Of a DNA stretch of 64,000 nucleotides, positions 597 through 34,802 are shown piece after piece. Source of the stretch: Clostridia bacterium (GTDB lineage Bacteria; Bacillota; Clostridia; Oscillospirales; QAKW01); the NCBI GenBank assembly GCA_017436525.1, contig JAFSCX010000044.1:1267-65266 (forward strand), written 5' to 3'. The notes beneath the pieces are model-generated. The model was given only the letters and a program-made list of their open reading frames with translations. It made no database searches and had not been told where the DNA came from. Each line of letters begins with the position of its first letter. Position 1 is the first letter of the stretch. The position numbers and the translations under genes were made by a program.

Positions 597-689
597 ATGT
601 GGAAATATGAAAAACGCTTGCAATACCCTGTAGACATTAAAAAGCCCGACGCGCGCCTTGCCAAGGTCATCATGTCGCAGTTTGGAGGT
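597..689 (+). pseudogene. cotJC: cotJC 5' fragment (codons 1-31), interrupted by prophage insertion
   Basis: ATG at 597 gives MWKYEKRLQYPVDIKKPDARLAKVIMSQFGG, which parallels the CotJC (Mn-catalase-family spore coat protein) N-terminus MWVYEKKLQYPV...EQYGG as I recall it. After G31 the frame runs into phage DNA (LNCKRL) and stops at 708-710. Confidence 0.85.
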
Positions 690-710
690 CTTAACTGCAA
701 AAGGTTATAA
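665..710. other. attL (host arm / central GG 687-688 / phage arm)
   Basis: GGAGG (684-688) is shared with attR (34290-34294). The phage arm carries AAAGGTTATAA (700-710), the exact reverse complement of TTATAACCTTT at 34271-34281. Confidence 0.75.
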
Positions 711-834
711 TTTTATATAGTCAATGGTGAAAGGTCAAAGCCGAGAAATGTCGAACTACGCCCGCAAAAGACGATGATCGGGAAGATTCGATATTTTTCA
801 CTATCATTTAGTTAACCCATATAGGAGGATTAAA

Positions 835-1179
835 ATGACCAACACCATCTATCAATTACTACATCATTTAAGTGCAACCGGTAACTACCGAGGCTTTAAG
901 CTCACGGTGATTGCACTGAGGCTTGTTTTGCAAGATGAAGATTGGCTTCTTCAGATTACCGAGTTATGCCGAGAGGTTGCAAGAATCGCAGGCTGCCCCG
1001 AATGTACCGTAGAGCGAAACATCCGGACGCTGATCAATCGGGTGTGGAAAAATTGCTCGAAACGATTGATTGAGATCGCCGGCTTTCATATGTATGCGCC
1101 GCCCAATGTATCCGAATTCTTGGATATCCTTGCAAATCATATCCGCCGCACCTGCCGCGTTTCGATTTCAAAAGAATAG
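835..1179 (+). CDS. Spo0A C-terminal (DNA-binding) domain-only protein, prophage-encoded
   Basis: 114 aa. YRGFKLTVIALRLVL..LLQITELCREVA....CTVERNIRTLINRVW....IEIAGF.....PPNVSEFLDILANHIR aligns motif by motif with the Spo0A effector domain (KGY.YLREAI..LLGSITK.LY..IA....VERAIRHAIEVAW....FGY...KPTNSEFIA). There is no receiver domain. RBS AGGAGG lies upstream. Confidence 0.75.
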   Translation: MTNTIYQLLHHLSATGNYRGFKLTVIALRLVLQDEDWLLQITELCREVARIAGCPECTVERNIRTLINRVWKNCSKRLIEIAGFHMYAPPNVSEFLDILANHIRRTCRVSISKE

Positions 1180-1182
1180 AAG

Positions 1183-1217
1183 AAAGGCTCTCCTTTGCGG
1201 GAGAGCCTTTCTTTTTT
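1183..1217. terminator. bidirectional intrinsic terminator
   Basis: AAAGGCTCTCC-tttgc-GGGAGAGCCTTT hairpin followed by CTTTTTT. It sits between the convergent 835-1179 (+) and 1216-10626 (-) genes. Confidence 0.8.
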
Positions 1218-4200
1218 AATCCTCTTCGTGAGCCTTCTTATAAGCTTTGATCTTCGCGACCGTCTCCCAGCCCGTAGAAACCGAGAACGGATTATTCTTT
1301 GCAGAGGTCGAGCCGGTAAAGAGTTGCCAGAGAATTGCCTGCTGGCGCCGAGTCAGGCCATCGGTGGAAGCAATGGCCGCTTGAATCCTGCCATTAGATG
1401 CACTATTCTTACCTGCCGCATCATTGGCATCCTCAAGATTCTCTTTGACCATGATAAATTGATCAAGAGAAATATCATGCTCCGTTCCGATTGCAATCCT
1501 GCGCCGATCGGAATCAGATGCAAATAGGCTCATTGCATAAAGTTTTTCGCTCTCATCAACATCGGCGCTTGCAATCGCCTTATACTTTTGCAGATAAGAG
1601 ATACTTTCCTCGCCCTGCTCCGGTGCTATCGCCTCAAGACCTCTCGCGATCTTAACAGCACTTTCTTTTGGAAGCCCCTCACCAATCATTTTGGCCGCCT
1701 TATCGGTATCCACCGAAGAATCGAAATAAATATCATAGAAGGTATCAAAATCAATATTATTCTCTTTTACCACCTTTTGAGCCCGCTCATAGGTGCTCTT
1801 CCCTTCGATCTGCAGAGCCATTTCGGCACCATAGATCTCTCGATTCACCTCCCGATAAATCTCTTCGGCAGATGCTGAAGGATCATTGGCCAGACGCTCA
1901 TCCACTGCTTTGATATACCGTTCATACTCTTCTTCTGATTGAAGCAAAAGAGCATTTCTTGCAGCATATTGGATTTTCAATGCTTCTTCCTTATCCTTTT
2001 TACTAAGAGAGACATTGCCCTGAATCTGCTTGATTTCCTTGCTGATCTCGGAGATCGCCTTAGCTTTATGATTCCACCACCGATATTTCACCTCATCGGC
2101 AGCGGTTGCCTTGCTACTGTTCTTCTTTTCCGTCAGCAGATCCTTTGTATCATAAAAATCACCCTGCAGACGATTAGAATACTCCGAATCAATAACAAAT
2201 GCTTTAGTCAGGAAATTCTGCTGGCTTGCCACCGAAAGCATGGGTAAAATAATATCTCCGGCAACACCGGTATAAGAATCCAGCAGATAATTGATCTTCT
2301 TGGGAGAGATATTCAATGCTCCGCCGATCGCAATAGAGAACTTATCGGTAGTGGCATCATACTGCTCCGCCTTGGGATCATCTTGCATGCTCTGGGGCAC
2401 AATATCTCCGCCATACCAATTTTTATTGAAAGCAATGGCGGTCAGCGCAGATGCAAAGACATTATCCGTCAGCGGATTCATCGGTGCAACCTGATCGGCG
2501 GCCGTGGAGATAAATTCACCCCAGCCAATCTCTTCTCCCTCGATCAACTGCTTAATCCGATATATCGGCATCCCCATTACGGAAAGAACTCTTCCTTTCG
2601 GAATCTTCAGCCAAGAATGATCTCCCGCTTTTATCAGGAAATTTACATCCTTATCCCGCTGCTTGATCTTCTCATATTCATCATCATCTCCGAAAAGAAT
2701 ATCATTGATCAGCGAAGGAGCGATTCCCAAAAGGGCAACCTTTGCAATCAGCCCCACCCATTGGCGGGCGCTTTTTGTCTCTGTCAGCAGGCGGCAAGCT
2801 TTGGACCATCCCTGAATGCTTGGGTTAAAGAAGGGTACCCAATTCTGATTTAAGCGCTTCCCAAGCGTTCCGCTCCGGCCGAAATTAACCGTAATATCCG
2901 CAGCGTTATACATAGCTTCCATCAAGCTATCCATGCTGCCATCGCCTTTTTTAACTGTGGCCATAAATTCCGCCAATCTCGGTGCCTGCTCTATGGCGCG
3001 ATTCAACCATTCAATTCTGTTACCGATATTCCGCTTGATCCATCCGCCTTCCTCTTTGATGATCCCTTGATTATAATCGAATACAGAAGAATAAGTGCCT
3101 CCAAGCGCCTGATACTTCTGCCAATACTCTCCGTTTCGTGCAATCTCCTTCCATGCTGCAGGGTAGTTTCGCAAGAATCCTTTTAGATCCTTCGAATAAA
3201 GAGAAGCATCCTGAATATCTCTTGCAAAGTTTCTCACCGCAAAGGCAGGGTTGTAGCTGGTGATCAACGCTTTATAGAGATTAACCGCTTTATGAGACTG
3301 CTCTTCCAGCCAAAATGTTTTTTCTTTTTCCGGCGAGAGTGCCTTGACCGCCTCCAAGAGCTCCGGCGTTACCGAAAGGGTGTATTGAGTGCCATGGTCA
3401 TATACCATAAAAAGATTTTCCCACTCCTCTTGTTGGAAGGGATCCATCTTGTCGATTGCACCCTCAAACTCCGAAAGCCCGATCATACGATCGGCAGATT
3501 GCTCAAAGTCAACCACCTCTTTGAACTTTCCTTGGCGCGCAAGATCCAAGAGCCTCATTCCAAACCGATTCTTGCTTCCCTCACGCACCACCGATAAAGT
3601 CTGATCGGCGATCTGCTTATGGAGCGGCACCAAATCGGCCACACCGTCCTCCGCTCTGCCTACCGTCTTTCCGATGGATGCCCGATTGCTCTTTCTCGCC
3701 TCAACGCTCTCTTCCGCTTGCACCCTGCGGGTCGGCACATAATGAGGATAAATCGCCCTCAGCTCCTCGGCAAAATCCTTGGAAATCAATCCGCTATCCA
3801 CTCGATATTGCAAAAGATTATCAAGATATCGCCGCACTGCATCTCCAAGCTCCTTAAATTCCGGATGCTCTCGAAGGAGATCCTGCGCCTTACCTTCGCT
3901 GACCTCGGCAGTAACATCAGGGCCGAATACAGGAATATTTCGAATTTCCTCCATCCGCTCCTTAAAATCCAATGCCTTGATATATTCCAACGCTGCAGGC
4001 TGAGATGGATCGCTCCAATCTCCCGCTTTTCTGCGAATATCCCGTTCCGATAGATTGGCAAATTCCGGATAACATTCCGCAATCAGCTCAAAATCTGCCC
4101 GAGCCTGCTCGGTTCTTTCAATGCTCTCGCGGCTCATGCGGTCGATATTATGAAGATGGTAAAGGTAATATTGGAATTGCTCATAATAAGCCTTACCCTT

Positions 4201-7200
4201 CTTCATGATCGGCGAGAAAATCTCATTGAGCCCTTTTCCAATGGTATCGCCAAATATATTGGTCTGCTTGTTTTGAATCATGCTGATTCCCGCATTGGAG
4301 GAAGAACGTGCCATATTGAAATATTGATAGAGATGCTCATCCCCTTTTCTTCGGCCAATATCATAAACCGCATCGCCGGAATCTACCAGCTTCCGCTGGA
4401 TCATATTCCAGCTCTCGCTCATCTTCTCTCCAAAGGTCTTGCGTTCCTCCTGCACCTCAGTAGAAACGCCCGCCTCCGGTGAAGCATTTTCCTCCGCAAA
4501 GCTCGAAGCGGTTCGGGAAAGAAGCGCCATATAACTGCTTGCGTTTTGGCTTGCTCTCTTTGCCTCGCCGCTCTCCATCTCAAAGAGCGCATCGATCTCC
4601 GCCTGCCGATCGGCCGCAAACTGCGCTTGTTCAAAGGGATCCATATCGACAAAGTCTTTGGCGAAATCTGCACCATCATTCTGCGCCGCCACCTCCTCCG
4701 AGGTAAAGAGGGAATCAATGGCATCTGTTTCTGGATCAAAATCCGTTCCGGGGCGGATCTGATCTCCGCCATTTTTCCAGCCATATTCCCTCGCCCGCTG
4801 CTCCTTTACCTTGTTTTCCAACTGAGCGATGATATCCCCGCTCACCTTGCTCTCGCCAAGATGCTGCTCAATGGCTCCCAATACCTTCCGCAGCATCTCC
4901 GCCGATTCGATATCGGTATCCGCCAAGCGATCCACTCCAGCATATGCATTTTCTAAAAAAGCGTCGGCATCCACGCCTCCAAGTCCTTGGGCTTCTTGCA
5001 AAATTCCCTCTTGGCGGTAAAGCTCTGCCAGCTCCACTACCACATCATTGCGGCCGGGGGCAATTAAGGAAGAGACTTTTCGCTGTTTTGGAGTGGAATT
5101 ATTTTTTTCTTGACTATTTTGATTGTTTTGTGATATATTATTATTGGAAGTATTCATTCCATAGCTAGCGGCAATTGGCGCCGTCGGCTCACTGGTTTGG
5201 ATGCTTCTGTTTTTTATTCTAACAATATTTCCTTTTCTCAATTCTTTTTGGATATACCCGCGCAGATCTTCTTTACCAAATACAGTAGCCACCTTATTCA
5301 CATCTATCATCACTCTGTTGCAGTTTGCGTGTTCATTAATATAAACAGGGACATTGATAGTATCTCCGTTTTGATTTTTATGTTGAGAGATAAGGAGAAA
5401 ATATTTTTCTCTTCTGTTTGGATTATCAGCGTTTTTGGTTCCTCGATACGCCTCCGTAACATCCTCTAAGCTATCCATAACCTTCAAAAACAGAGTATCT
5501 CCAAGGCCGTGATAATTAGTTTTACCGTCAACCTTTAACCCCATTGCTTGCGCTTCTTTTTCAGTAAGGATGTTTTCTCTGATATGCGACGCCTTCATGG
5601 CCATCGGAAGATTTTTAGCACCTTTTTGAGAAACTACAATTGACGGTGTAGTTTCTGTTAGCTCAATATCGCCTCCATAATATTTATTGTTTATCGCCTT
5701 TTTAACCTCGGTCGCCGCTCCGTCTTTTAATGAATATTTCATCGCCCCCTCAAGATCCACCGCACCTTCCGCCGCCTGATAATTGGAAGCCGCATCGAGG
5801 GCGGCATCTTCAAAAAGCGCATAGAATTGATCCAATACGCCTTCCATCTGCTGCAGGGCTTGCGCCTCGGCAGATGCGGGGGCGTAATTATTTTTGGAAT
5901 ATTCTGCACGGATTCTTTTCAAAAGGCTTTTGATATGATTGATGATCCGGCTGAAAAGGCTCTGATCCTTCTGCTTCAGTGCGGCAAGCTTCTCCACCGC
6001 CTTGCTATCCAGCAGCATCCGCTCGCAGGCATCACAAACGACCTCCTCATAAGCCAAAGCGGGATCCTCGATCCCTAAAGCCTCTTGCTTTGCCTTAACC
6101 AGCTCATCCATGGAGATCCCATGCTCCCCATATTGCTCCTCTAAGAATTTTGCAAAGGCATCGAATTTTTCTACCGACCACTGCTTAATAAAGTGGGTCA
6201 GTTCATGGCTCATGGTTAAAGCGATGGTCTTTCGATCATCCAAATTCTTCTGCAGATCTAAATGGATGCTGCTATCGGCCTCATTAAAGAAACCATTTGC
6301 ATTAGCGCCATAAGTACCTTCAATAGTGGAATCATAGAAAACAATATCAATCCCGATGGCATTGGCAACCACTTTTGCAAGCTTCACCGCTTGCTTTTGG
6401 GATTCGGTGATGGCTTCTGCCCCCTTTTCAAAACGCACCGCGCCGGTACCAGCCACCGCCTCGGGTGCTTCCGCTTGCTCATCATAGATCATCTCCCGAG
6501 CGATTCTTTGCTCCTGCTCAGTTACTCGATTTTCATTGCAAAAAGCCTCGATCTGCTTCCGCACCGCCGCAAGCTCTGTCCGATCAACCGTATAGGCTTC
6601 CTGCGTTAGCATAACGGAATAATACCGAGCGCAAAACTCATCCTCTGCCATTGAGCGTGAATAATCCAAGCCGCTCACAGCCTTTTGCTGCAGAATGGTA
6701 TTGATCTCCTCTGCAACACCCTCTTCTCCGAGGGTGTTTTTTGCTGCCTGCAGGATGGTTTCTCGAAAGTTCTTTCCCTTTTCCGGCTCCAGCTGCATGA
6801 TCATCTGATAGGCCTGATGGCCGATGGCATAAAAAATCCCCTGATCCAGATCGGTAAGATTCACCGCCATTAAGCCGGAAGCAAGAAAATCTCCCGTTTG
6901 ATGATGATCGGTAACAAGGAAATGAATCCCGCTCATCTCCGAGAGAATATTCAAGGTCTCTGCCGCCTCTTGCTGGGTTTCATTCAAATCAGCTCTGCCT
7001 TCCACGATCACGCCTTCTTTCATGAAGCCTGCCATGGAATCATAATATAAGATCTGCTCAATGGCTTGGGTATCGAATTCCCCGAAAGTATCCTTAAAGA
7101 GGGCAAGGCGGGCTTTAGAAACCTTTCCATTCTCATCGGTAAAGGAAGCAAGGCGGGCAAGGAGTGCGATCTGCCGAGGGGAGATATCCTTTCCCAAGAG

Positions 7201-11249: not shown

Positions 11250-11251
11250 GT

Positions 11252-22491: not shown

Positions 22492-22492
22492 C

Positions 22493-24344: not shown

Positions 24345-24385
24345 CCTCTCTTTTTCCTTTCCTTTAATAGCTCCTCAAAATGCCC

Positions 24386-24423: not shown

Positions 24424-24426
24424 GCT

Positions 24427-26027: not shown

Positions 26028-26239
26028 ACCGGCTCCACCTCCTCCATTCGAAAACTATGTAGGGCATTCTTGCCCTTCTCTAAAATATCGCAATAGGGCA
26101 GCTCCTTCCCGTCTCGATCCTTCCGATAGCCAACCGCCGCCACCGTTCCGGCAACGATCCGCTCATAGGTGGGCTCCTGTACCTTCGCCATCACCTTCCG
26201 GCCGGAAACCAACGCCGCCCGAAGTTCAAAGAATTCCAT
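26015..26239 (-). CDS. hypothetical early protein
   Basis: Start chosen at MEFFELRAAL (26239) behind AAGGAAGGA. Confidence 0.35.
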   Translation of the reverse strand: MEFFELRAALVSGRKVMAKVQEPTYERIVAGTVAAVGYRKDRDGKELPYCDILEKGKNALHSFRMEEVEPVWQE

Positions 26240-26675
26240 CGTATCCTTCCTTTCTGTCAAAAACTGTACCAATTACTTTGGCACGCTCCGCAAAGAAATT
26301 ATCAAGATCATCAGTTGCACCATTTTCCGTCCAAGCAACCTCAAAGCGACAAAGCGCATCATTCCAACGAACAATGAAATCTTCTCCTTCACCATCATCT
26401 CCGTAAAACCGGCAAATATCTCCTTCAAAGATAATTCCGCGCTTTGCCTTCATTCCGGTGCAGCTTCCTATTGTCTCCGGTATAACATTCCAGATTCGGC
26501 TCTTTTTGCCAAAATTTCGAATATAATAAACGGTTACCTCTCCTTTAGAGGCTACAATTCTTAAGTTACCTTTTACCCACCAACCTTTGATGAGTTGACC
26601 ATTTATGTAAATATTTTCTGATCCGCTTGAATCTTCATGAAATCCACGAAAAACAAATCTACTCTTTGAATTCAT
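26226..26675 (-). CDS. YopX-family phage protein
   Basis: ..VIPETIGSCTGMKAKRGIIFEGDICRF....VIGTVFD matches the YopX pattern (v.peTvgq.TGl.Dk.G..IyEGDI ... viGNi.d). Confidence 0.7.
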   Translation of the reverse strand: MNSKSRFVFRGFHEDSSGSENIYINGQLIKGWWVKGNLRIVASKGEVTVYYIRNFGKKSRIWNVIPETIGSCTGMKAKRGIIFEGDICRFYGDDGEGEDFIVRWNDALCRFEVAWTENGATDDLDNFFAERAKVIGTVFDRKEGYDGIL

Positions 26676-27696: not shown

Positions 27697-27806
27697 ACAA
27701 CACGCCTTCTTTTTTGTTTATCCATACGGAAAGGCTGTATGTTCTTTTGATGAAGTGGTGTTCTGATTTCGGCTTTTGCCTACTCTGTCTGACGATCCAC
27801 CAATAC

Positions 27807-27871
27807 GGGCGCACGCCGTTATTGTTGTTGTAGTTGTTGTTATTGTTGATGTTGCCGCGGGGCGAGACACA
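27807..27871 (-). repeat. DGR template repeat (TR)
   Basis: Coding-strand sequence: TGTGTCTCGCCCCGCGGC AAC ATC AAC AAT AAC AAC AAC TAC AAC AAC AAT AAC GGCGTGCGCCCG. There are 22 adenines in the central 36 nt. The invariant flanks are identical to VR1 and VR2. Confidence 0.9.
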
Positions 27872-28268
27872 AAAAATACAACACACAGCCTATATTTAAT
27901 CTTTTTTTCTCTTTGCTCCTCCAAGCAATAGCCATATACTTAACATCAGAAGTAATCTTGGACCAATAAGATGCCGAATGATCCGCAAGCAACCCTAAAT
28001 TCATTGATAATTCAATAAAGAATAGCAGCTCATCGCAATAGGTTATAGCTCTCGTGATAGTTTCACAGCGTTGTCGCTTATCGGTAACATTATTGATCCG
28101 GTTCGCCTCAAAAAGCGTCTCGTAGATCTCCAAGCTCTTAATCTGAATCTTATCTACAAGAGAATGGCGATATTTCTTTGGATATCTATTGCAATTAGAT
28201 GTCAATTTGAAAGAATGTACCGCCAATTCCTTAGCCTTGACGATTACCTTCAATTCAGTATCTGCCAC
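27840..28268 (-). CDS. avd: DGR accessory variability determinant (Avd), four-helix-bundle family
   Basis: 142 aa with a GTG start. ..NRYPKKYRHSLVDKIQIKSLEIYETLFEANRI... resembles Avd and 23S-rRNA-IVS four-helix-bundle proteins. It lies between the targets and the TR, and its 3' end overlaps the TR. Confidence 0.8.
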   Translation of the reverse strand: MADTELKVIVKAKELAVHSFKLTSNCNRYPKKYRHSLVDKIQIKSLEIYETLFEANRINNVTDKRQRCETITRAITYCDELLFFIELSMNLGLLADHSASYWSKITSDVKYMAIAWRSKEKKRLNIGCVLYFLCLAPRQHQQ

Positions 28269-28273
28269 GATCC

Positions 28274-28813
28274 TCAGTCCTCACAAGATACAGAGATTGA
28301 AGATACAAAGCACAAAATCGGGCGCACGCCGAGACAGTCGTCGTTGCAGTCGCCGTCATTGAGGATGCCGCCGCGGGGCGAGACACAAAGTCGCCAAGAA
28401 GGATCACAGTGCGGCAGCGCAGTATCTGCAGTAGCAAGCCACCACCAATCATTTACCTTGTACATATCAAACAAATCAACATGCTTCCGGTAAAAATCAA
28501 AGGTCGGGATGCTGATTTTCGAATTTATTTTTCCATATCCTTTCAAGCCATCCAGCGTTGTAAGATCGGTTTCAAAATCACAAATATTTTCAGCACCCAC
28601 TTCTTTTTCGATCATTGGCAGAAACTCTTTATTCAGCCGTTCTAAAACCTTACTTTTTGAAAAATCATTGTTGCCATACTCAGATTTGAAAGCAACACCC
28701 TTTGCGACAACCGTAATTTTTCCATCATTATCCTCCATCTTGATGAAGGACTCTCCACCTACCCGGAAGGACTTTCCAATTTCAACTTCACTTAATTTAA
28801 CAGTATTTTTCAT
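28274..28813 (-). CDS. DGR target protein 1 (C-type-lectin/FGE-like variable C-terminus)
   Basis: Start at MKNTVKLSEV (28813) behind GGAGG. The C-terminus ..WWWLATAD....CVSPRGGILNDGDCNDDCLGVRP.. carries VR1. Paralogous to target 2. Confidence 0.85.
   Translation of the reverse strand: MKNTVKLSEVEIGKSFRVGGESFIKMEDNDGKITVVAKGVAFKSEYGNNDFSKSKVLERLNKEFLPMIEKEVGAENICDFETDLTTLDGLKGYGKINSKISIPTFDFYRKHVDLFDMYKVNDWWWLATADTALPHCDPSWRLCVSPRGGILNDGDCNDDCLGVRPILCFVSSISVSCED
28320..28387 (-). repeat. DGR variable repeat VR1 (68 nt, one codon longer than TR)
   Basis: Flanks are identical to the TR. All 14 substitutions relative to the TR fall at TR adenines. There is one extra GAC codon in the AAC run. 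Confidence 0.85.
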
Positions 28814-28814
28814 A

Positions 28815-29435
28815 TTATTTTTCCTCCACTTTAGATACAAAGATATTAGAATTTAAGATACAAAACGGGCGCACGCCGCTAATGATGTCGTAGCTGTCGC
28901 TATTGTGGATGCCGCCGCGGGGCGAGACACACTTCACCCATGAACTATTATCATGCTTCGGAGTGCTATATGCCGTAGCAGTCCACCACCAATCGTCGAT
29001 CTTATATTCATCCAGAAGATCAACATATTTTCTATAAAGATTTGCGGTAAGTAAAGACATTTTCCTTTCAATGCTGCCATAACATTTCAAACCATCATCA
29101 GCAGTCAGATTCACCGTATGTTTAATAAGGTTCTCCTCGCCGATGATCTTTTCGATCTCGCACCCAAAATCTTTGCAAATAGCATCTACATTTGAGCCAT
29201 CATAATTGTTGTTTTCACCAAAAAATTCACTATTACGATACAGAGCCTTAAGAATCACCGCCGCGGCATTTTCAGACTGCTCAAGTACGATAAATTCGTA
29301 GTCGCCAACCTTAAATGTTTTCCCTGCCTCAATATCCGCAAGTTTGATTTGCGTTTTTTCAAAGCTACGCTTGATCTCCTCAGCCTGCTCAGCGGTTAAT
29401 TCGATTTTCTTTCCGTTCAACATCATGTAATTCAT
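28815..29435 (-). CDS. DGR target protein 2 (paralog of target 1)
   Basis: 206 aa. The C-terminus ..WWWTATAY....CVSPRGGIHNSDSYDIISGVRP.. carries VR2. Confidence 0.85.
   Translation of the reverse strand: MNYMMLNGKKIELTAEQAEEIKRSFEKTQIKLADIEAGKTFKVGDYEFIVLEQSENAAAVILKALYRNSEFFGENNNYDGSNVDAICKDFGCEIEKIIGEENLIKHTVNLTADDGLKCYGSIERKMSLLTANLYRKYVDLLDEYKIDDWWWTATAYSTPKHDNSSWVKCVSPRGGIHNSDSYDIISGVRPFCILNSNIFVSKVEEK
28867..28931 (-). repeat. DGR variable repeat VR2 (65 nt, same length as TR)
   Basis: 10 substitutions relative to the TR, all at TR adenine positions. Flanks GTGTCTCGCCCCGCGGC and GGCGTGCGCCCG are identical. Confidence 0.9.
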
Positions 29436-29517
29436 TTTCTAAAACTCTCCTTGCAAATATTCTCCCCTCATGCTAAAATATACATGAGGTTCATTCTTGA
29501 CCGTTTGTCCTCGTTTC

Positions 29518-29550
29518 GCCGCTGAGCAGTTCCTTTGCTCAGCGGCTTTT
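29518..29550. terminator. GC-rich hairpin at the upstream edge of the DGR cassette
   Basis: GCCGCTGAGCA-gttcctt-TGCTCAGCGGC, with TTTT on the + strand and AAAA on the other side. Confidence 0.5.
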
Positions 29551-29551
29551 C

Positions 29552-29944
29552 TCATACAATCTCCAAAAATCCGGGGTTATCAATGGCATTGCCGATGATC
29601 TCAAAATTGGAAGATGGCTCTTCAAAGAAATTGATCTGCCGCCCATCCTTGGTCATCAGAGCAAACATTCCATCTTCCTCTGCATATTCCACCACTCCGG
29701 CAAGGCCTCTCTCCTTATCCAGGATAATATCCTGATCGAAGAGTACCCGCTCATCCTTTGCTTGCAACCCGCTGCAGGCGCATACCGTTTTCGGATCCAC
29801 CGGATAGCAGAATACCTTGTCCCCCTCAAAGCCGTAGATCGCAGGACCAATCTCCGGTACCGTCGGATGCTTCGGCAGATAATAGCCTTCCACCCATCCC
29901 TGCGCCGCCTTTCCGCGGCAAATCAAATGCTTCTTCTCGTTCAT
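29552..29944 (-). CDS. YopX-family phage protein (second copy)
   Basis: ..VDPKTVCACSGLQAKDERVLFDQDII....FEIIGNAIDNPGFLE fits the YopX pattern. Confidence 0.65.
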   Translation of the reverse strand: MNEKKHLICRGKAAQGWVEGYYLPKHPTVPEIGPAIYGFEGDKVFCYPVDPKTVCACSGLQAKDERVLFDQDIILDKERGLAGVVEYAEEDGMFALMTKDGRQINFFEEPSSNFEIIGNAIDNPGFLEIV

Positions 29945-30240
29945 TTTTCTTCAACCTCTCTTTCATCATTTGTATTTGCTTCAATGAACATAAAAGCCAA
30001 AAATAATCCGGCGCCGCCCACCATAAATAGCGGCACCCGCCAAAGCGGTCCCTCATAGCTGCAGGCCGCCACCGTGAAAATCCCCGAAAGGATCATCCCC
30101 ATCATGCTCAAGCCATTCACCATCAGCCGCATCACCGGCCGCCATCCTCGGCGGTCTTTTTCTTTTTTTAGTATGTATAGATTTTTCATCCTTAAGCTTG
30201 TCCTTCCCAAGCGCCTGAGGCGCTTTTTAGATAAATCCAT
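29941..30240 (-). CDS. small membrane protein (start uncertain)
   Basis: Two hydrophobic segments (LSMMGMILSGIFTVAA, VPLFMVGGAGLFLAFMFI). 4-bp overlap downstream. Confidence 0.4.
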   Translation of the reverse strand: MDLSKKRLRRLGRTSLRMKNLYILKKEKDRRGWRPVMRLMVNGLSMMGMILSGIFTVAACSYEGPLWRVPLFMVGGAGLFLAFMFIEANTNDEREVEEK

Positions 30241-30526
30241 GCTCCCGATCGTATTCCTTCACCATCTCACTCTGGCAGAATTTATGATATTCCTCCGGAT
30301 GATCCGTCCAATATTGGCTGATCACCTTCGAGAGCCGCCGCTCCCGCTTTGCTTTATGCGCTGCCTTCTGCTCCTCGCTCATTTCCTCAAAGCGGATATA
30401 CTTCTGATCCCGCTCCTCCGGCGCCACATCCTCATAATTCAGATCCTCCTCCGGATTCCTTGGAAAATAACAAACGCAGGGCAGAATATCATTCCGCTTA
30501 CGCTTCTTCTTTGTCTCGGCCATCAT
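30227..30526 (-). CDS. hypothetical early protein (charged, 99 aa)
   Basis: First ORF after the cro-like gene on the early (-) strand transcript. Confidence 0.35.
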   Translation of the reverse strand: MMAETKKKRKRNDILPCVCYFPRNPEEDLNYEDVAPEERDQKYIRFEEMSEEQKAAHKAKRERRLSKVISQYWTDHPEEYHKFCQSEMVKEYDREHGFI

Positions 30527-30586
30527 CAGCCCTCCTTTCTTATTACCTCTATTCCGCCCACCGCTTGGCCTATGCCCTGAACTTCC

Positions 30587-30775
30587 TTAGCCTTCCACAC
30601 CATAAAGCTCATCCAAGGTGCACCCCAACGCCCTCGCCAACTCCGGCAGCTGCTTCGCACGAGGACTCCGCACACCGCTCTCCCACTGACAAACCGTTGT
30701 CTGCCCCACCTTCATCACTTGGGCTAACTCACTTTGAGTTAGCCCTTTTTCTTTTCGAATTTCTTTAATCCTCAA
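30587..30775 (-). CDS. Cro-like XRE-family HTH regulator
   Basis: TTG start (30775) lies 7 nt after AGGAGG. LRIKEIRKEKGLTQSELAQVMKVGQTTVCQWESG is a canonical XRE HTH. The longer ORF-track start was rejected. Confidence 0.75.
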   Translation of the reverse strand: MRIKEIRKEKGLTQSELAQVMKVGQTTVCQWESGVRSPRAKQLPELARALGCTLDELYGVEG

Positions 30776-30813
30776 GTCATCACCTCCTAAAAAGCAAAAT
30801 ATTCTTTCGCTCT

Positions 30814-30831
30814 GTGATATTAAAATATCAC
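30814..30831. promoter_or_regulatory. operator: perfect 18-bp palindrome overlapping the early-promoter -10
   Basis: GTGATATTAAAATATCAC. Related half-sites TTGTGATAT (30905-30913) and TTGTGAGAAT (30866-30875) are present. Minus-strand promoter: TTGACA (30845-30850), 17 nt, TGaTATTTT (-10 at 30822-30827). Confidence 0.65.
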
Positions 30832-30887
30832 GATATGAAAGATTTGTCAAGTATTTTATTTCGTTTTGTGAGAATTTTCTTTTTGTG

Positions 30888-30916
30888 TTGATTTGCTTCA
30901 CATTTTGTGATATTTT
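30888..30916 (+). promoter_or_regulatory. candidate repressor (cI-like) promoter
   Basis: TTGATT, 17 nt, TGaTATTTT (extended -10), with the -10 overlapped by the GTGATAT half-site. Confidence 0.5.
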
Positions 30917-30941
30917 TAGAATTATAAGGAGGCGAGTTATT

Positions 30942-31367
30942 ATGTTTGAAAAAAATCTCAAGCAATTACGAAAAGAAAGAAATCTCACCCAAACCGAATT
31001 GGCACTTCATCTTCGGGTTTCTCTGGGCGCTATTGGTAATTGGGAAGCAGGAAACCGTACACCCGATGCACAAATGCTTTTAACCATCGCTGACTATTTC
31101 GGCGTTTCTACAGATCGCCTTTTGCGTGATCCAAATTTCACAGACACCCCTTTCTCCCAAAAAGAAAAACGGTTGATCTCTGCATATAGAAATCAACCGG
31201 ATATTCAATTAGCGGTAGATCGGCTCTTGGGGGTTGATACCCCACTGAAATTAATATCGGAAAATAAAAGCGCGGCTTTGGGAGGAGACGAGACCCCAAT
31301 TATCTCCAATGCAAGTTCTAACGAAATTGCATCAACAATCAGAAAAATAAAAAAAGAAGGGGAATAA
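30942..31367 (+). CDS. CI/ImmR-like XRE-family repressor
   Basis: ATG 30942 behind AAGGAGG. MFEKNLKQLRKERNLTQTELALHLRVSLGAIGNWEAGNRTP is an XRE HTH, followed by a C-terminal extension. Divergent from the cro-like gene. Confidence 0.8.
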   Translation: MFEKNLKQLRKERNLTQTELALHLRVSLGAIGNWEAGNRTPDAQMLLTIADYFGVSTDRLLRDPNFTDTPFSQKEKRLISAYRNQPDIQLAVDRLLGVDTPLKLISENKSAALGGDETPIISNASSNEIASTIRKIKKEGE

Positions 31368-31373
31368 ATTAAA

Positions 31374-31961
31374 ATGAATTTAGCAGAATTAGCTCAGAAA
31401 TTATATTTCGACGCTAAAAAGAGAACCCCTTTTACAGTTTCACCAGAAACCTTTCGATCACTTGCCGAACATTCCTTTTATACCGAAGATGAAATTAACG
31501 AAATGATTGTGAATTGTAATTTTCATATATGGAGTAGACGAACAACGCGTTTCTTAGCAAGAGCAAGCGAATATGGCATTTATTTTTCATGCCGCAACAA
31601 AACCACCATATCTGAATTAAAAAGTGCCATGGAGCAAACTTCTTCCTTGTTAAAAAGCGAAATTTCAATAAGTGCACATTTAAGCACAATGGATATCCAT
31701 CATCAAGTTGACATCGAGCTTGATAATATCGCTCGCATTTACATTTATCATCAAAACCGAATTATTTATTCAAACAAGCACTTTTTTAATAAACATGGCA
31801 AAACGATCTTCGAAAAAGAAATTGCTCTGCGCAAAGAATTAGAGACCGAAGAAACTCAACGGATTGCAGCAGAGGGCGGCACTACCATTCCCGTAACCCC
31901 AAAAGTAGACGAAAATACTTTAGTCCAGCTATATAAAAAGGCTTCGAAAGAGAAAAAATAA
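31374..31961 (+). CDS. hypothetical protein (195 aa) in the lysogeny operon
   Basis: AT-rich ORF 6 nt after the repressor gene. No motif recognised. Confidence 0.5.
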   Translation: MNLAELAQKLYFDAKKRTPFTVSPETFRSLAEHSFYTEDEINEMIVNCNFHIWSRRTTRFLARASEYGIYFSCRNKTTISELKSAMEQTSSLLKSEISISAHLSTMDIHHQVDIELDNIARIYIYHQNRIIYSNKHFFNKHGKTIFEKEIALRKELETEETQRIAAEGGTTIPVTPKVDENTLVQLYKKASKEKK

Positions 31962-32030
31962 ATAGAACTATAGATTTTCGACATTATTTGCGGTAACCTT
32001 AAGTTAAATCATTATTAACGGAGGTTACCC

Positions 32031-32759
32031 ATGAAGCTGTTGAAATTTTATCTTCGCTATTTTCTTTTTCGTTCTACAAAAAAACTCAAAAACATCATTC
32101 AGATCATCGAATCCCAGGGCTTTCATGTTTTTTCCTACCTTTTAGAGGATGAGAAAGACGATACAACCATCCTCATTAACCAATGGGGATGCCATGAGCA
32201 CGCAAAGCACCACAGCGCTTTTATCATTTCCAACTCGTTTGCCAAAGGTCTCTTTATCAAAGAAAACCTAAATGACGATGATCGTCTTGAATTATATTTT
32301 CATGAAGAAGCCCACATTTTATACGATCATCCCTTCTATGATGGCTATACCAACAATACCACCGTTCAGCAGGAAAAGGTTGCTAATTTCTTCCTCTTCC
32401 GCCTGCGATTGCTGAAGGCAGCGACCTACACCCTGTTCTTTGCTGCTCTTTTATCTGCAGCCTTCCTACTCCACCCGCTCAAGGGTGCGGAGGTTGCCGA
32501 TGAGGAGCCCCAAGCAGTTCTGCAGACCGCCGTCTACACTGCACCGGAGGAGGATCCGATCCCTGCAGATCTGCTGATCGCCGAAGCCTCGGCAGAGCCG
32601 GCAATCAAACCCACCGGCGCCACCGTCTATATCACCCCCTCCGGTGAACGCTATCACCGCCCCGATTGTTACCACATCGAAGGCCGCACCACCCTGCCCT
32701 TGACTATCCCCGAAGCGGAGCAATTCAACAAAACCCCTTGTAAAACCTGTCAACCTTGA
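32031..32759 (+). CDS. ImmA/IrrE-like metalloprotease fused to a TM segment and a C-terminal Cys/His module
   Basis: ..AKGLFIKENLNDDDRLELYFHEEAHILYDH matches the ImmA/IrrE pattern (HExxH). Then comes TM ATYTLFFAALLSAAFLL, an acidic/Pro linker, and ..VYITPSGERYHRPDCYH....PCKTCQP. Confidence 0.6.
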   Translation: MKLLKFYLRYFLFRSTKKLKNIIQIIESQGFHVFSYLLEDEKDDTTILINQWGCHEHAKHHSAFIISNSFAKGLFIKENLNDDDRLELYFHEEAHILYDHPFYDGYTNNTTVQQEKVANFFLFRLRLLKAATYTLFFAALLSAAFLLHPLKGAEVADEEPQAVLQTAVYTAPEEDPIPADLLIAEASAEPAIKPTGATVYITPSGERYHRPDCYHIEGRTTLPLTIPEAEQFNKTPCKTCQP

Positions 32760-32774
32760 AAGGAGGTGAAAACT

Positions 32775-34226
32775 ATGGAAATCTTTGCAGGCTATATCCG
32801 CGTCAGCACTGATGATCAAACCGAATACTCCCCCGATAGCCAGATGAAGCTCCTGCGGGAACGCGCCGAAAAGGACGGCGGCATGATTCCGGAAGAATAT
32901 ATGTTCGCAGATCCCGGCATCAGCGGCAAGGATGCCGCCCACCGCCCCGAATTCAACCGCATGATTGCTTTAGCAAAGCAAAAAGATCCCCCTTTTCGGA
33001 GGATCTATGTTTGGAAATTCAGCCGCTTCGCCCGCAACCAAGAGGAAAGCATTGTATTTAAGAATATGCTCCGCAAAAACGGAGTAGAGATCGTCAGCAT
33101 CTCCGAGCCTTTAGTGGAGGGTGCCTTCGGCTCCCTGATAGAGCGCATTATCGAATGGCAAGATGAATATTACCTGATCAACCTTTCCGGCGAGGTAAAG
33201 CGCGGCATGATGGAAAAAGCAAGCCGCGGCGAGGCCATGTGCCGGGTATTCGGTCTCGATATCAAAGATCTCTCCTATGTCAAAAATGCCGATAACCCCC
33301 ATGTGGTTGATATCTTTGAATCCTTTGATCAAGGAGAGAACCTTCGCTCTATCGCCAAGCGTCTCGATGCCGCAGGGGTACGCACCCCAAGAGGAAACTC
33401 GCCCGATATTCGCTTTGTGGAATATATCCTTCGCAACCCTATCTATATTAAAAAGCTTCGATGGAGCTCCGAGGGAAATCCTTGCTCCAAGCGCCGCTAT
33501 GACGATCCAAACATTAAGATTTTCGATGCAAAAGCACCTCGCACGGTTTCCGATGAGCTTTTCTATCGAGTGCAAAAGCGCCTCGATGATCGCAAGGCAC
33601 TCTATGCCAGATCGGACCGCCCCAATACCGGCCGCCCTTGGCTCCTAAAAGGAATTGCCAAATGCGACTGCGGCGGATCCTTAGTGTTTGCATCTGCCAA
33701 AGAGCCCTCTGTTCAATGTAATAACTATAACCATATGCGCGGTTGCACCGTCAGCCACCATATTTCCCAAAGAAAACTGTTTGAATCCTTTGTAATCGGT
33801 CTTAGAAACTGCTGTGCCCTCGATCGCTACGATACCGATCCCGATGCACCTATCAAAAAAGCCTCCGAAAGCGCCCCCGCCGATTTTCAAAAACTCATCG
33901 CCGCCGAGGAGCGCAAGCTCGCTCGCTGCGCCGCCGCCTTTCAGGCCGGCATTGATACGATGGAGGAATACGCAAAAAATAAGGCCGAGATCCAAAAGCG
34001 AATCAACGCCCTTGAGCAGGAAGCTTCCCGCCAAGCGAATAAACTCTCCCCCGAATCAGCAAAAGCCGCCTCTATCGAGGATTACCGCACCCGCACCATG
34101 GCGCTGATCCACACCCTTGAAGATCCGGAGATCCCTATCCCCTTAAAAAACGATGCCACCCGCTCCCTGATCTCCCGCGTCGTCTTCCACAAACCGGATA
34201 ACACCCTATCCATCTTCTTCAAATAA
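32775..34226 (+). CDS. large serine recombinase (prophage integrase)
   Basis: ATG 32775 lies 8 nt after AGGAGG. AGYIRVSTDDQ carries the catalytic Ser motif of the resolvase domain. A recombinase/zinc-ribbon region (CDCGGSL....C..YNHMRGC) and a C-terminal coiled coil follow. It is the last gene before attR. Confidence 0.9.
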   Translation: MEIFAGYIRVSTDDQTEYSPDSQMKLLRERAEKDGGMIPEEYMFADPGISGKDAAHRPEFNRMIALAKQKDPPFRRIYVWKFSRFARNQEESIVFKNMLRKNGVEIVSISEPLVEGAFGSLIERIIEWQDEYYLINLSGEVKRGMMEKASRGEAMCRVFGLDIKDLSYVKNADNPHVVDIFESFDQGENLRSIAKRLDAAGVRTPRGNSPDIRFVEYILRNPIYIKKLRWSSEGNPCSKRRYDDPNIKIFDAKAPRTVSDELFYRVQKRLDDRKALYARSDRPNTGRPWLLKGIAKCDCGGSLVFASAKEPSVQCNNYNHMRGCTVSHHISQRKLFESFVIGLRNCCALDRYDTDPDAPIKKASESAPADFQKLIAAEERKLARCAAAFQAGIDTMEEYAKNKAEIQKRINALEQEASRQANKLSPESAKAASIEDYRTRTMALIHTLEDPEIPIPLKNDATRSLISRVVFHKPDNTLSIFFK

Positions 34227-34270
34227 CCACCCCTTGAAATCTCAAAATCGACCCTTTACCATACCTATTT

Positions 34271-34316
34271 TTATAACCTTTAACATTTCGGAGGCCCCGA
34301 TGGAGAACTGGGCGCA
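34271..34316. other. attR (phage arm / central GG 34293-34294 / host arm)
   Basis: TTATAACCTTT-aacatttcgga-GG, then cotJC sequence. It mirrors the attL phage arm: the reconstructed attP has 11-bp inverted repeats placed 11 nt either side of GG. Confidence 0.75.
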
Positions 34317-34802
34317 TCTCAGCGTTATCTTTCCCAGCGCTATTCCATGCCCTATCGGGAGGTTTCCGCCCTGCTCACCGATATCGGTACCGAGGAGCTG
34401 GCCCATATGGAAATTGTATCTACCATTGTGCGGCAGCTCTTAAAGGGGCTCTCTGCCGATGAGATCCAAGCCCAAGGCTTTGCCGACTATTATACCGACC
34501 ATACCGCCGGAATCTGGCCGCAGGCGGCAAGCGGTGAGCCTTGGAGCGCCACCACCTTCCAATCCAAAGGAGATCCCATCACCGATCTTTTTGAGGATAT
34601 GGGCGCGGAGCAAAAGGCCCGTACCACCTATGATAACCTGCTGCGGTTGATTAAGGATCCGGATGTACGGGATCCCATCAAATTCCTCCGCCAGCGGGAG
34701 ATCAACCATTTCCAACGTTTCGGTGAAGCCCTCGGCCAAGTCCGCCGCCATCTGGACAGCAAAAACTACTATCGCTTCAACCCTGCCTTTGATAAAAAAT
34801 AA
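34290..34802 (+). pseudogene. cotJC: cotJC 3' fragment (resumes at Gly30/31)
   Basis: In-frame GGPDGELGASQRYLSQRYSMPYREVSALLTDIGTEELAHMEIV....KGDPITDLFEDMGAEQKARTTY....FLRQREINHFQRF is the CotJC/Mn-catalase family. No start codon or RBS of its own lies upstream. Confidence 0.9.

What the first reader, a model, noticed from the sequence alone, without database searches (positions are those of the whole stretch)
597..34802. A 33.6-kb prophage splits the sporulation gene cotJC at codon 31, and precise excision would rebuild the ORF
Seen in sequence:
- The ORF at 597 reads MWKYEKRLQYPVDIKKPDARLAKVIMSQFGG. It then loses family similarity and stops at 708-710.
- At 34290 the same reading frame resumes as GGPDGELGASQRYLSQRYSMPYREVSALLTDIGTEELAHMEIV... 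and runs to 34802.
- Joining at the shared GGAGG gives ...SQFGGPDGELGASQRYLSQRY..., which parallels the B. subtilis CotJC N-terminus as I recall it (...EQYGGADGELAAALRYLNQRY...).
- cotJA and cotJB sit intact just upstream. Everything between the two halves is phage.

Established knowledge: skin (in sigK) and SPbeta (in spsM) are elements with large serine recombinases. They excise in the mother cell to reconstitute sporulation genes.

Inference: this is either a developmentally excised intervening prophage of that class, targeting a mother-cell coat operon, or a plain insertional knockout of cotJC. I cannot check from here whether a cotJC-borne element has already been described.
Basis: partly seen in the sequence, partly recalled or inferred. 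Interest (0 to 1): 0.85.

Follow-up and report, generated by a model that had tools for sequence, protein, structure and literature searches.

The report
Temperate phage inserted in spore-coat gene cotJC
A complete 33.6-kb temperate phage sits inside the spore-coat gene cotJC of an uncultured gut Clostridia bacterium, belongs to a large, apparently undescribed family of gut phages that use this same spot, and would restore the gene exactly on excision, but whether it leaves during spore formation is untested.

Summary
cotJA (109-345) and cotJB (342-593) are intact. cotJC is cut within codon 31 at a shared GGAGG (684-688 and 34290-34294). Joining the halves gives a 199-aa Mn-catalase/CotJC that is 95% identical, end to end, to intact 199-aa proteins in syntenic cotJABC loci of related MAGs.

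The insert (689-34289) is an apparently complete podovirus-like prophage. Its large serine recombinase (LSR, 32766-34226) lies next to attR.

New here: this is one member of a large family.
- Of 139 assessable LSR relatives (35-79% identity) from gut and rumen metagenomes, MAGs and IMG/VR, 86 abut a cotJC fragment broken at the same place.
- About 30 more carry a palindromic attP centred on GG with a cotJC-like core.
- Four lineages are seen both integrated and free.

Sporulation-timed excision, as in SPβ or skin, cannot be tested here. No RDF or σE/σK promoter was found, and no empty site of this strain is in public assemblies. I put it at about 50%.

cotJC has been mentioned in passing as an interrupted gene (Abe 2013 as cited; Galperin 2022), so this is a new member of a known kind.

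A side lead: a phage Spo0A-effector-domain gene lies immediately after cotJC', with no predicted terminator between them in the window.

The parts
109..345 (+). cotJA, intact
   Evidence: Pfam PF11007 CotJA, E 1.2e-13.
342..593 (+). cotJB, intact
   Evidence: Pfam PF12652 CotJB, E 8.5e-25. The exact protein is found on 14 public contigs, and every one that reaches the junction carries the prophage.
597..710 (+). cotJC 5' fragment. Host codons 1-31 lie at 597-688, followed by 6 phage-derived codons and a stop.
   Evidence: Translation. Truncated fragments of 33-37 aa that break after SQFGG occur in nine further sequence variants, several from named MAGs.
660..715 (.). attL. The core GGAGG lies at 684-688, and the inferred crossover dinucleotide GG at 687-688. 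The P' arm reads TCTTAACTGCAAAAGGTTATAA.
   Evidence: Comparison of attL, attR and the empty site. The central GG is inferred from the symmetry of attP sites in relatives.
749..755 (+). Consensus Spo0A box TGTCGAA between attL and the Spo0A_C-like gene
   Evidence: It is not enriched in the window as a whole (3 found, 5.2 expected), so it is only suggestive. Relatives carry a 0A box inside a TTGACA-N17-TATAAT promoter beside attP.
835..1179 (+). Phage gene for a stand-alone Spo0A C-terminal (effector) domain protein of 114 aa. It has the same orientation as cotJ and is followed by a bidirectional terminator at 1180-1213.
   Evidence: Pfam PF08769, E 1.8e-18. It matches phrog_24603. It aligns to the Spo0A C-domain structures 1FC3 and 1LQ1, including the VERxIR helix. 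No terminator is predicted between 710 and 835. The position next to attL is conserved in L009-11, L182-184 and L188.
1216..10626 (-). 3136-aa polyvalent protein (LPD38 domain), probably an ejected or tail-associated virion protein
   Evidence: Pfam PF18857, E 2e-31. It matches phrog_14770.
10623..22900 (-). Virion and lysis module, with these genes:
- 219-aa and 721-aa tail-like proteins;
- SU10-type adaptor (13395-13982);
- major head protein (14062-14880);
- amidase with SLH domain (15758-16492);
- SPP1-type holin (16489-16728);
- LRR protein;
- P22-like portal (19230-20903);
- large terminase (21082-22491);
- small terminase (22493-22900).
   Evidence: A related set of structural genes occurs in prophage L012, which sits at the same cotJC site.
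23019..30988 (-). Early and replication region:
- replication initiator (23580-24344);
- YopX-like genes;
- diversity-generating retroelement, with RT at 26659-27696, Avd at 27840-28268, TR at about 27801-27873, and VRs at 28340-28389 and 28861-28933 in two target genes;
- Cro-like HTH protein (30587-30988).
30885..32759 (+). Lysogeny operon upstream of the recombinase: a cI-like HTH repressor (30885-31367) and two ORFs of unknown function (31374-31961 and 32031-32759)
   Evidence: Pfam HTH_3. The two unknown ORFs have no credible family match and are not conserved in relatives.
32766..34226 (+). Large serine recombinase (486 aa), reading towards attR
   Evidence: Pfam Resolvase (E 3e-25) and Recombinase (E 4e-14), plus a below-cut-off Zn_ribbon_recom match (20.4 bits against a 25.3 cut-off). 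The catalytic motif YIRVSTDDQ is conserved in alignment A1. Relatives abut cotJC.
34262..34320 (.). attR. The P arm reads TTATAACCTTTAACATTTC. The core GGAGG lies at 34290-34294.
   Evidence: The half-sites of the reconstructed attP match at 17 of 22 positions as an inverted repeat (my reading of the sequence).
34290..34802 (+). cotJC 3' fragment (codons 30-199 plus stop)
   Evidence: Gene callers annotate only a 151-aa remnant starting at the ATG at 34347 (P0131).

Best explanation
The element is an apparently complete temperate phage, integrated by its own large serine recombinase (LSR) into a conserved attB inside cotJC.

**Shown**
- The attB covers the codons for (F/Y)-G-G-P, with crossover at the GG that begins codon 31.
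- A whole family of gut and rumen Clostridia phages uses this attB.
- Because LSR recombination is conservative, attL x attR recombination restores a full-length cotJC and a circular phage with a palindromic attP.

**Inferred**
- The recombinase is made continuously from the repressor operon.
- An unidentified phage RDF supplies directionality.
- Excision accompanies prophage induction.
- Excision probably (about 50%) also occurs in the sporulating mother cell. Lysogens would then still make CotJC-containing spores, while the forespore chromosome keeps the prophage, as with SPβ/spsM and φ3T/kamA.
For: - **Junction.** The two halves join exactly in frame, and related genomes have a syntenic empty site.
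- **Recombinase.** An LSR with the catalytic serine motif lies next to attR.
- **Phage modules.** Packaging, head, adaptor, lysis, replication and lysogeny-switch genes are all present.
- **Family.** Of 139 assessable LSR relatives, 64 are followed by a 3' cotJC fragment and 22 by a reversed 5' fragment.
- **Free forms.** About 30 more relatives have a palindromic attP centred on GG/CC with a cotJC-like core.
- **Both states.** Four lineages at 95% LSR identity or more occur both integrated and as attP. L015, at 79% identity, shows LSR-attP-Spo0A_C.
- **Recurrent site.** Different prophage types occupy the same break point in other MAGs.
- **3' halves.** Roughly 49 of 57 assessable lysogens keep an open 3' cotJC frame (after my hand correction of five script artefacts).
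- **Precedent.** The tested prophage(-like) elements in mother-cell sporulation genes named in the papers read here excise during sporulation (PMC4191935, PMC6957869, PMC5595907). For yin in yabG, excision was growth-phase dependent and excised copies were detected at every time point (PMC10747680).
Against: - No excised form of this strain exists in public data. The exact joined protein is absent from the 15-billion-protein collection. The junction pattern found nothing in JGI metagenomes or IMG/VR.
- The contigs that carry this prophage are 100% identical to the window, so they are one strain and say nothing about long-term retention.
- No RDF was recognised.
- A crude σE/σK consensus scan found nothing upstream of the recombinase or of small prophage genes.
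- About 8 of 57 lysogens in the family have a shortened 3' cotJC.
- CotJC-type catalases are dispensable for coat assembly in C. difficile (text quoted in PMC11222575), so a knockout may simply be tolerated.
Confidence: 0.5

Rival explanations
1. Plain lysogeny in a 'safe harbour'. The phage family uses cotJC only because the site is conserved and the gene is not needed in growing cells. Excision happens only on ordinary prophage induction. Lysogens sporulate without this CotJC.
For: - No sporulation-type promoter or RDF was found.
- CotJC-like catalases are dispensable for coat formation in C. difficile (PMC11222575).
- Some family lysogens have truncated 3' fragments.
- Free attP forms in IMG/VR viral contigs and metagenome assemblies need only ordinary induction to explain them.
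Against: - In the tested cases read here, sporulation-gene-borne elements are excised during sporulation or in a growth-phase-dependent way.
- Most lysogens keep the 3' half intact.
- CotJC is widely conserved among spore formers (bioRxiv 10.1101/2022.02.25.481979), which argues for a fitness value.
Confidence: 0.4
2. A domesticated or defective intervening element of the skin type. It no longer makes virions and is kept only as a developmental switch.
For: Many described intervening elements are defective prophages (PMC4191935 and PMC6957869).
Against: - All expected phage modules are present as long open frames, including the terminases, portal, head protein, lysis genes and a DGR whose VR/TR differences fall on TR adenines.
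- Relatives are found as free attP-bearing genomes.
Confidence: 0.06
3. Assembly artefact: a chimeric contig that joins phage and host sequence.
For: The source is probably a metagenome assembly. Upstream context differs between L001 and L002.
Against: - The same attL junction was assembled independently in at least five samples (L001-L005), 99.9-100% identical to the window.
- Equivalent attL and attR junctions occur in dozens of unrelated assemblies.
- The junctions fall exactly at a recombinase-type core.
Confidence: 0.01

Closest known systems
SPβ in spsM (SprA/SprB) and φ3T in kamA of Bacillus subtilis
   Same: Each is an active temperate phage that uses a large serine recombinase to sit inside a mother-cell sporulation gene. 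Each has a short overlap core (5 bp in φ3T) flanked by imperfect inverted repeats. The recombinase gene lies at one end of the prophage, and excision restores the reading frame (PMC4191935, PMC6957869, PMC5499854).
   Different: - The target gene (cotJC), host class (gut Clostridia) and phage type (about 34-kb podovirus-like against about 130-kb siphovirus) all differ.
- No RDF and no sporulation promoter were identified.
- Excision during sporulation has not been shown.
- The recombinase resembles other large serine recombinases only at family level (best curated hits are the CcrB, CcrC and XisF models, far below their cut-offs). I did not compare it directly with SprA.
skin elements in sigK (SpoIVCA/Skr in B. 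subtilis; CD1231/CD1234 in C. difficile), vfbin (spoVFB), vrin (spoVR), gin (gerE), yin (yabG)
   Same: Each is an intervening element with a serine recombinase in a sporulation gene, and its removal rebuilds the gene.
   Different: Most of those elements are defective or are not phages, and they are proven developmental switches. This one looks like a complete phage, and its timing is unknown.
Previously listed cotJC interruptions (Abe et al. 2013 as cited by Kohm et al., bioRxiv 10.1101/2021.11.22.469490; Laceyella sacchari in Galperin et al., bioRxiv 10.1101/2022.02.25.481979)
   Same: The same gene is reported as split by a mobile element.
   Different: Those are one-line mentions in Bacilli-type genomes, and I found no analysis of recombinase, att sites or spread. 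I could not read Abe 2013, so overlap with the family described here is unknown.
Large serine integrases of phages (Bxb1, φC31, A118, TP901-1)
   Same: The domain order is the same. attP is short and palindromic with a non-palindromic central dinucleotide. Directionality depends on an RDF.
   Different: No close sequence relative has been characterised. The best hit in GenBank phages is 37% identical and comes from a metagenomic genome (PQ006094).

Membership tests
Sporulation-gene intervening prophage with developmental excision (SPβ/skin class) | [quoted passage not shown] | tested here: met
   cotJC is split within codon 31, downstream of cotJA and cotJB. Mother-cell (σE) expression is taken from B. 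subtilis cotJ (established knowledge) and was not tested in this organism.
Sporulation-gene intervening prophage with developmental excision (SPβ/skin class) | The element encodes a site-specific (usually large serine) recombinase next to an att site. | tested here: met
   The LSR at 32766-34226 ends 63 nt before the attR core.
Sporulation-gene intervening prophage with developmental excision (SPβ/skin class) | Precise excision restores an intact, family-typical reading frame. | tested here: met
   The joined ORF is 199 aa, 95% identical with 100% coverage to intact proteins. Its DNA is collinear with an empty site.
Sporulation-gene intervening prophage with developmental excision (SPβ/skin class) | A cognate recombination directionality factor is encoded by the element. 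| tested here: inconclusive
   - No ORF matches a known RDF family.
- The neighbours of the recombinase are not conserved in relatives.
- The attP-adjacent Spo0A_C gene also occurs beside a tyrosine integrase (L193), which argues against it being the RDF.
Sporulation-gene intervening prophage with developmental excision (SPβ/skin class) | A sporulation-specific (σE/σK) promoter drives the recombinase or the RDF. | tested here: inconclusive
   The regex scan found no σE/σK-like site before the recombinase or the small prophage ORFs. The scan is crude, and the consensus for this host is unknown.
Sporulation-gene intervening prophage with developmental excision (SPβ/skin class) | Excision occurs in the mother cell during sporulation. 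| not testable with these tools
   This needs cultures or raw reads. Assemblies hold no attB or attP of this strain.
Large serine recombinase | An N-terminal resolvase domain with the catalytic serine, a recombinase domain and a zinc ribbon. | tested here: met
   PF00239 and PF07508 pass their curated cut-offs. PF13408 is a weak match (20.4 bits against a cut-off of 25.3). YIRVSTDDQ is conserved.
Large serine recombinase | Short att sites with imperfect dyad symmetry around a non-palindromic central dinucleotide. | tested here: met
   The reconstructed attP has arms matching at 17 of 22 positions around GG (my reading of the sequence). Relatives score up to 19 of 20 against a shuffled maximum of 14.
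cotJC-targeting LSR phage family (defined here) | An LSR homolog lies directly beside a cotJC fragment broken at the FGGP/YGGP codons, or beside an attP with that core. | tested here: met
   86 of 139 assessable loci are integrated, and about 30 have such an attP. The window shares the break point.
Diversity-generating retroelement (side feature) | RT, Avd, and a template repeat with variable repeats that differ at template adenines. | tested here: met
   RT (PF00078), Avd (phrog_3206, NF033474), one TR and two VRs are present. By my reading of the printed alignment, all core mismatches between VR2 and TR fall at TR adenines.

The most novel reading that the evidence does not exclude
Integration into cotJC rewires a phage gene.

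**What is seen**
- In the subclade with 75% or higher LSR identity, the first prophage gene after attL encodes a stand-alone Spo0A effector-domain protein.
- In most members it starts 18-37 nt after the cotJC' stop, has its own ribosome-binding site, and leaves no room for a promoter.
- In the free phage it is therefore read from a phage promoter across attP. In three relatives that promoter carries a Spo0A box.
- In the lysogen it would instead be read from the host cotJ operon promoter, which is mother-cell specific in B. subtilis.

**Novel reading**
The phage uses this fusion to sense or hijack sporulation. It might trigger its own excision or induction, or alter the Spo0A regulon, exactly when cotJ is switched on.
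Probability: 0.15. Interest if true: 0.8.

Novelty: new member of a known kind. Interest (0 to 1): 0.5.

Why it matters
**What it adds**
- Prophages that split sporulation genes and leave in the mother cell are a textbook case of phage-host co-option. Almost all studied examples come from Bacillus and a few pathogenic clostridia.
- This locus, and the family found around it (hundreds of LSR matches in each of the two scans, with 45 LSR clusters at 95% identity that abut cotJC), show the same architecture to be common in uncultured gut and rumen Clostridia, which are thought to rely on spores for transmission between hosts.

**If excision is sporulation-timed**
- cotJC would join sigK, spsM, kamA, spoVFB, spoVR, gerE and yabG as a developmentally rebuilt gene.
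- The family would offer many natural attB/attP/LSR sets for study and for genome engineering.

**If it is not**
- The family is an example of phages choosing a conserved but dispensable sporulation gene as a landing site.
- Lysogens should then show measurable changes in spore coat catalase.

**Annotation**
- Split cotJC genes in MAGs are currently called as 34-37-aa and 151-aa 'manganese catalase' fragments.

Tried and rejected
- **Excised form of this strain.** The exact joined CotJC is not in the 15-billion-protein collection. A degenerate pattern matching attB, attP, attL and attR of this phage-host pair found nothing in JGI metagenomes or IMG/VR.
- **Long-term retention.** I hoped the 14 contigs carrying the exact CotJB would show it. 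The four long ones that were read (L001-L004) are 100% identical to the window over 6.6 kb, so they are one strain and carry no such information.
- **Sporulation promoters.** Regex scans for σE and σK consensus promoters gave no hit before the recombinase or the small ORFs. The only strict σE-like hit lies upstream of the host TspO gene.
- **Spo0A_C protein as RDF.** I considered this because of its conserved place beside attP. It is weakened because an 81%-identical copy sits beside a tyrosine integrase on a related phage backbone (L193). Other copies lie in an early phage region or in plain chromosomal context.
- **Spo0A box enrichment.** There is none in the window as a whole: 3 found against 5.2 expected.
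- **ORFs upstream of the recombinase.** The 195-aa and 242-aa ORFs have no credible match in Pfam, PHROGs, NCBIfam or PADLOC (one weak Cas5b hit at E 9e-5), and they are not conserved in relatives.
- **Other searches.** No cultured phage has a close recombinase. Rfam found nothing at gathering score.
- **Literature.** Abe et al. 2013 could not be read.

Full report
**1.

The ORF at 597 reads MWKYEKRLQYPVDIKKPDARLAKVIMSQFGG, then LNCKRL and a stop at 708-710. At 34290 the frame GGPDGELGASQRYLSQRY... runs to the stop at 34800-34802.

Both junctions carry GGAGG (684-688 and 34290-34294). Joining through one copy gives a 600-nt, 199-codon ORF.

- That protein matches Pfam Mn_catalase over residues 1-181 (E 3e-48).
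- It aligns across the junction with solved Mn catalases.
- It is 94-95% identical over 100% of its length to four intact 199-aa proteins.
- Two of those proteins lie in syntenic loci: TrkA-TrkH-two small genes-cotJA-cotJB-cotJC...TspO (L007 from GCA_045544255.1, and L008).
- With the insert removed, the window aligns to these loci as a single 992-nt block at 84% identity across the junction.

The insertion is therefore precise, with no loss or duplication beyond the core. cotJA and cotJB are intact. The break falls after the second base of codon 31. It separates the N-terminal 31 residues from the rest of the protein, including the conserved GEL and EExxH motifs.

**2. The insert is a complete-looking temperate phage**

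The insert spans 689-34289 (33,601 bp). Reading from attL, it contains:

- a 114-aa stand-alone Spo0A C-terminal-domain protein (835-1179, + strand) followed by a bidirectional terminator;
- on the minus strand, a 3136-aa polyvalent protein with an LPD38 domain and two tail-like proteins;
- an SU10-type adaptor and a major head protein;
- an amidase with an SLH domain, an SPP1-type holin and an LRR protein;
- a P22-like portal and the large and small terminases;
- a replication initiator and YopX-like genes;
- a diversity-generating retroelement: RT, Avd, one template repeat and two variable repeats in two paralogous targets. By my reading of the printed alignment, all core differences between VR2 and TR fall on template adenines;
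- a divergent Cro-like/cI-like switch;
- on the plus strand, the repressor, two unknown ORFs and a 486-aa large serine recombinase (32766-34226). It matches the Resolvase and Recombinase domains, with a weak zinc-ribbon match below Pfam's cut-off, and carries the catalytic motif YIRVSTDDQ.

The recombinase stops 63 nt before the attR core. The reconstructed attP is TTATAACCTTTAACATTTCGGA-GG-TCTTAACTGCAAAAGGTTATAA. Its half-sites match at 17 of 22 positions as an inverted repeat (my reading of the sequence).

**3. This is one member of a large family that targets the same codons of cotJC**

*Truncated N-terminal fragments.* Exact look-up of the 37-aa fragment showed a cluster of nine other sequence variants, 33-37 aa long, several from named MAGs. 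All break after SQFGG. Their contexts show different prophages at the same place:

- a prophage with a different, largely unannotated virion gene set (L009, L010);
- a podovirus-like phage with related virion genes but different cargo (L012);
- others (L182-188).

*Relatives in GTDB genomes*.

| Locus | LSR identity | What follows the recombinase |
|---|---|---|
| L016, L017 | 79%, 77% | cotJC residues 28-199 |
| L018 | 75% | a reversed 5' cotJC fragment |
| L019 (Vescimonas) | 40% | a 3' cotJC fragment |
| L015 | 79% | an intact attP (TTTATAACCATAAACAGTTCGGCGGTCTTAATTGTTAAAGGTTATAAA), then the Spo0A_C gene |

L015 is the unintegrated form that the reconstruction predicts.

*Wider search.* A profile of these recombinases pulled 80 loci from metagenomes and 80 from IMG/VR at 38-51% identity. 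More than 550 candidate stretches passed in each scan. The 166 loci held were classified as follows.

| Class | Loci |
|---|---|
| Recombinase followed within 400 nt by a 3' cotJC fragment | 64 |
| Recombinase followed by a reversed 5' cotJC fragment | 22 |
| Other | 53 |
| Flank too short to assess | 22 |
| Recombinase truncated | 5 |

- Of the 53 'other' loci, 34 have a 20+20-nt palindrome scoring 15 of 20 or better just after the recombinase gene. The maximum in shuffled sequence was 14. A few of the 34 are terminator hairpins.
- 21 of those 34 have a GGNGG or CCNCC core at the centre. Counting weaker palindromes by eye, about 30 in all have such a core.
- An example is ATATCTTTTTGGAGTATGGA-GG-TCCATCCTCCAAAAAGATAT. 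These are attP sites whose centre mimics the T(T/A)Y-GGN-GGY-CC of cotJC.
- Their symmetry places the central dinucleotide at GG. That is the first two bases of codon 31, at window 687-688. It is CC when the recombinase module is inverted, which explains the two orientations.
- Clustering gives 95 recombinase clusters at 95% identity, and 45 of them contain members that abut cotJC.
- In four clusters the same phage is seen both integrated and with attP.

The family is therefore made up of active temperate phages that enter and leave cotJC. I found no cultured representative. The best GenBank phage hit is 37% identical and comes from a metagenomic circular genome.

**4. How it most likely works**

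*Shown:*
- conservative, site-specific insertion at a conserved attB;
- a recombinase gene that directly follows the repressor and two unknown ORFs on the same strand;
- a reading frame that is restored on excision.

*Inferred from what is established for large serine integrases:*
- The recombinase alone carries out attP x attB.
- attL x attR needs a phage RDF, so the timing of excision equals the timing of RDF expression.

I could not identify the RDF. The two ORFs upstream of the recombinase have no family match and are not conserved in relatives.

Whether excision is tied to sporulation is open.

*For:*
- The tested elements of this architecture named in the papers read here excise during sporulation, or in a growth-phase-dependent way in the case of yin.
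- Most family lysogens keep an open 3' cotJC (about 49 of 57).
- CotJC is widely conserved in spore formers.

*Against or neutral:*
- No attB or attP of this strain is present in assemblies.
- The contigs that share this prophage are clonal.
- No σE/σK-like promoter was found.
- About 8 of 57 lysogens have shortened 3' fragments.
- CotJC-type catalases are dispensable for coat assembly in C. difficile.

I put sporulation-linked excision at about 0.5, plain lysogeny in a dispensable gene at about 0.4, a defective domesticated element at about 0.06, and an artefact at about 0.01.

**5. A lead worth following**

In the subclade with 75% or higher recombinase identity, the first prophage gene after attL is usually the Spo0A-effector-domain gene.

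- It has the same orientation as cotJ.
- It has its own ribosome-binding site.
- It starts only 18-37 nt after the cotJC' stop in L009-11, L182-184 and L188.
- L188 and L017 are the two ends of one prophage in one MAG.
- In the window the gap is 124 nt. It holds a consensus Spo0A box (749-755) and no predicted terminator.

In L015, L016 and L017 a consensus TTGACA-N17-TATAAT promoter with a Spo0A box in its spacer lies between the recombinase stop and attP, pointing across attP. L016 and L017 are lysogens, so there it now points into the 3' cotJC fragment.

Integration would therefore disconnect the gene from its phage promoter and fuse it to the cotJ operon, which is σE-dependent in B. subtilis (established knowledge).

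The protein keeps the Spo0A recognition-helix motif VERxIR. It is probably not the RDF:

- an 81%-identical copy sits beside a tyrosine integrase on a related backbone (L193);
- more distant copies occur elsewhere.

A lysogenic-conversion regulator acting on Spo0A-controlled promoters is the more likely role. This is inference.

**6. Comparison with what is known, and novelty**

The closest systems are SPβ/spsM and φ3T/kamA, which are active phages with a large serine recombinase in a mother-cell gene. Next come the skin, vfbin, vrin, gin and yin elements.

cotJC itself has been named as an interrupted gene:
- Abe et al. 2013, as cited in bioRxiv 10.1101/2021.11.22.469490;
- Laceyella sacchari in bioRxiv 10.1101/2022.02.25.481979.

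I found no experimental or comparative study of such elements.

The locus is therefore a new member of a known kind. The added value is the breadth of the family, its defined attB and attP, and the Spo0A_C fusion.

Interest is 0.5. The finding is solid and useful, but it is not surprising to a specialist unless the developmental or Spo0A link is demonstrated.

Noticed in passing
window 26659-29435 (minus strand): The prophage carries a diversity-generating retroelement. Its parts are the RT (26659-27696), Avd (27840-28268), an A-rich template repeat (about 27801-27873) and two variable repeats (28340-28389 and 28861-28933). The variable repeats lie at the 3' ends of two paralogous phrog_9958 genes. 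All core mismatches between VR2 and TR fall on template adenines.
   Followed up: yes
window 835-1179 and 749-755; L009, L015, L182-184, L188, L193: The phage encodes a stand-alone Spo0A C-terminal-domain protein (phrog_24603). Its position directly after cotJC' is conserved in several prophages. There is a Spo0A box upstream in the window, and Spo0A boxes lie inside a consensus promoter next to attP in L015-L017. An 81%-identical copy sits beside a tyrosine integrase on a related phage backbone (L193), which shows exchange of integration modules.
   Followed up: partly
window 1216-10626 (minus strand): A single 3136-aa ORF takes up 28% of the prophage. It has an LPD38 'large polyvalent protein' domain near its C-terminus and is otherwise unannotated. 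A related prophage (L012) has only a 768-aa protein that matches its two ends.
   Followed up: no
L018, L023-L032, L042, L056, L061-62, L068, L087, L108-112 and others: In 22 family members the recombinase gene lies at the attL side, convergent with the 5' cotJC fragment. This matches attP sites whose central dinucleotide is CC rather than GG relative to the recombinase gene, so the family integrates in both orientations.
   Followed up: partly
L021, L069, L075, L082, L096, L085, L122, L137: In about 8 of 57 assessable lysogens of the family, the 3' cotJC reading frame ends early. Three of them stop at the same place, near residue 82. This could be decay of the split gene, a second insertion or assembly error.
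   Followed up: no
window 55400-55687; L001/L002 4353-4748: An intergenic sequence of about 290 bp is flanked by copies of the hairpin ACACCTTCGTTTGCAAAACGAAGGTGT. It recurs at 87-98% identity about 1 kb upstream of the cotJ operon in other assemblies of the same strain. It sits where the upstream context of L001 and L002 diverges. It could be a small repeat element or a cause of misassembly. It has no Rfam match.
   Followed up: partly
window 34850-34878: The only strict σE-type consensus match in the first 36 kb (GCATA-N16-CATATATT) lies just upstream of the host TspO/MBR gene (34899-35378), which follows cotJC.
   Followed up: no
window 34347-34802 and 597-710: Public gene calls split this locus into a 37-aa and a 151-aa 'manganese catalase' fragment (P0121, P0131). 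Similar calls of 33-37 aa exist for nine other sequence variants, several from named MAGs. Split cotJC genes are therefore systematically mis-annotated.
   Followed up: yes
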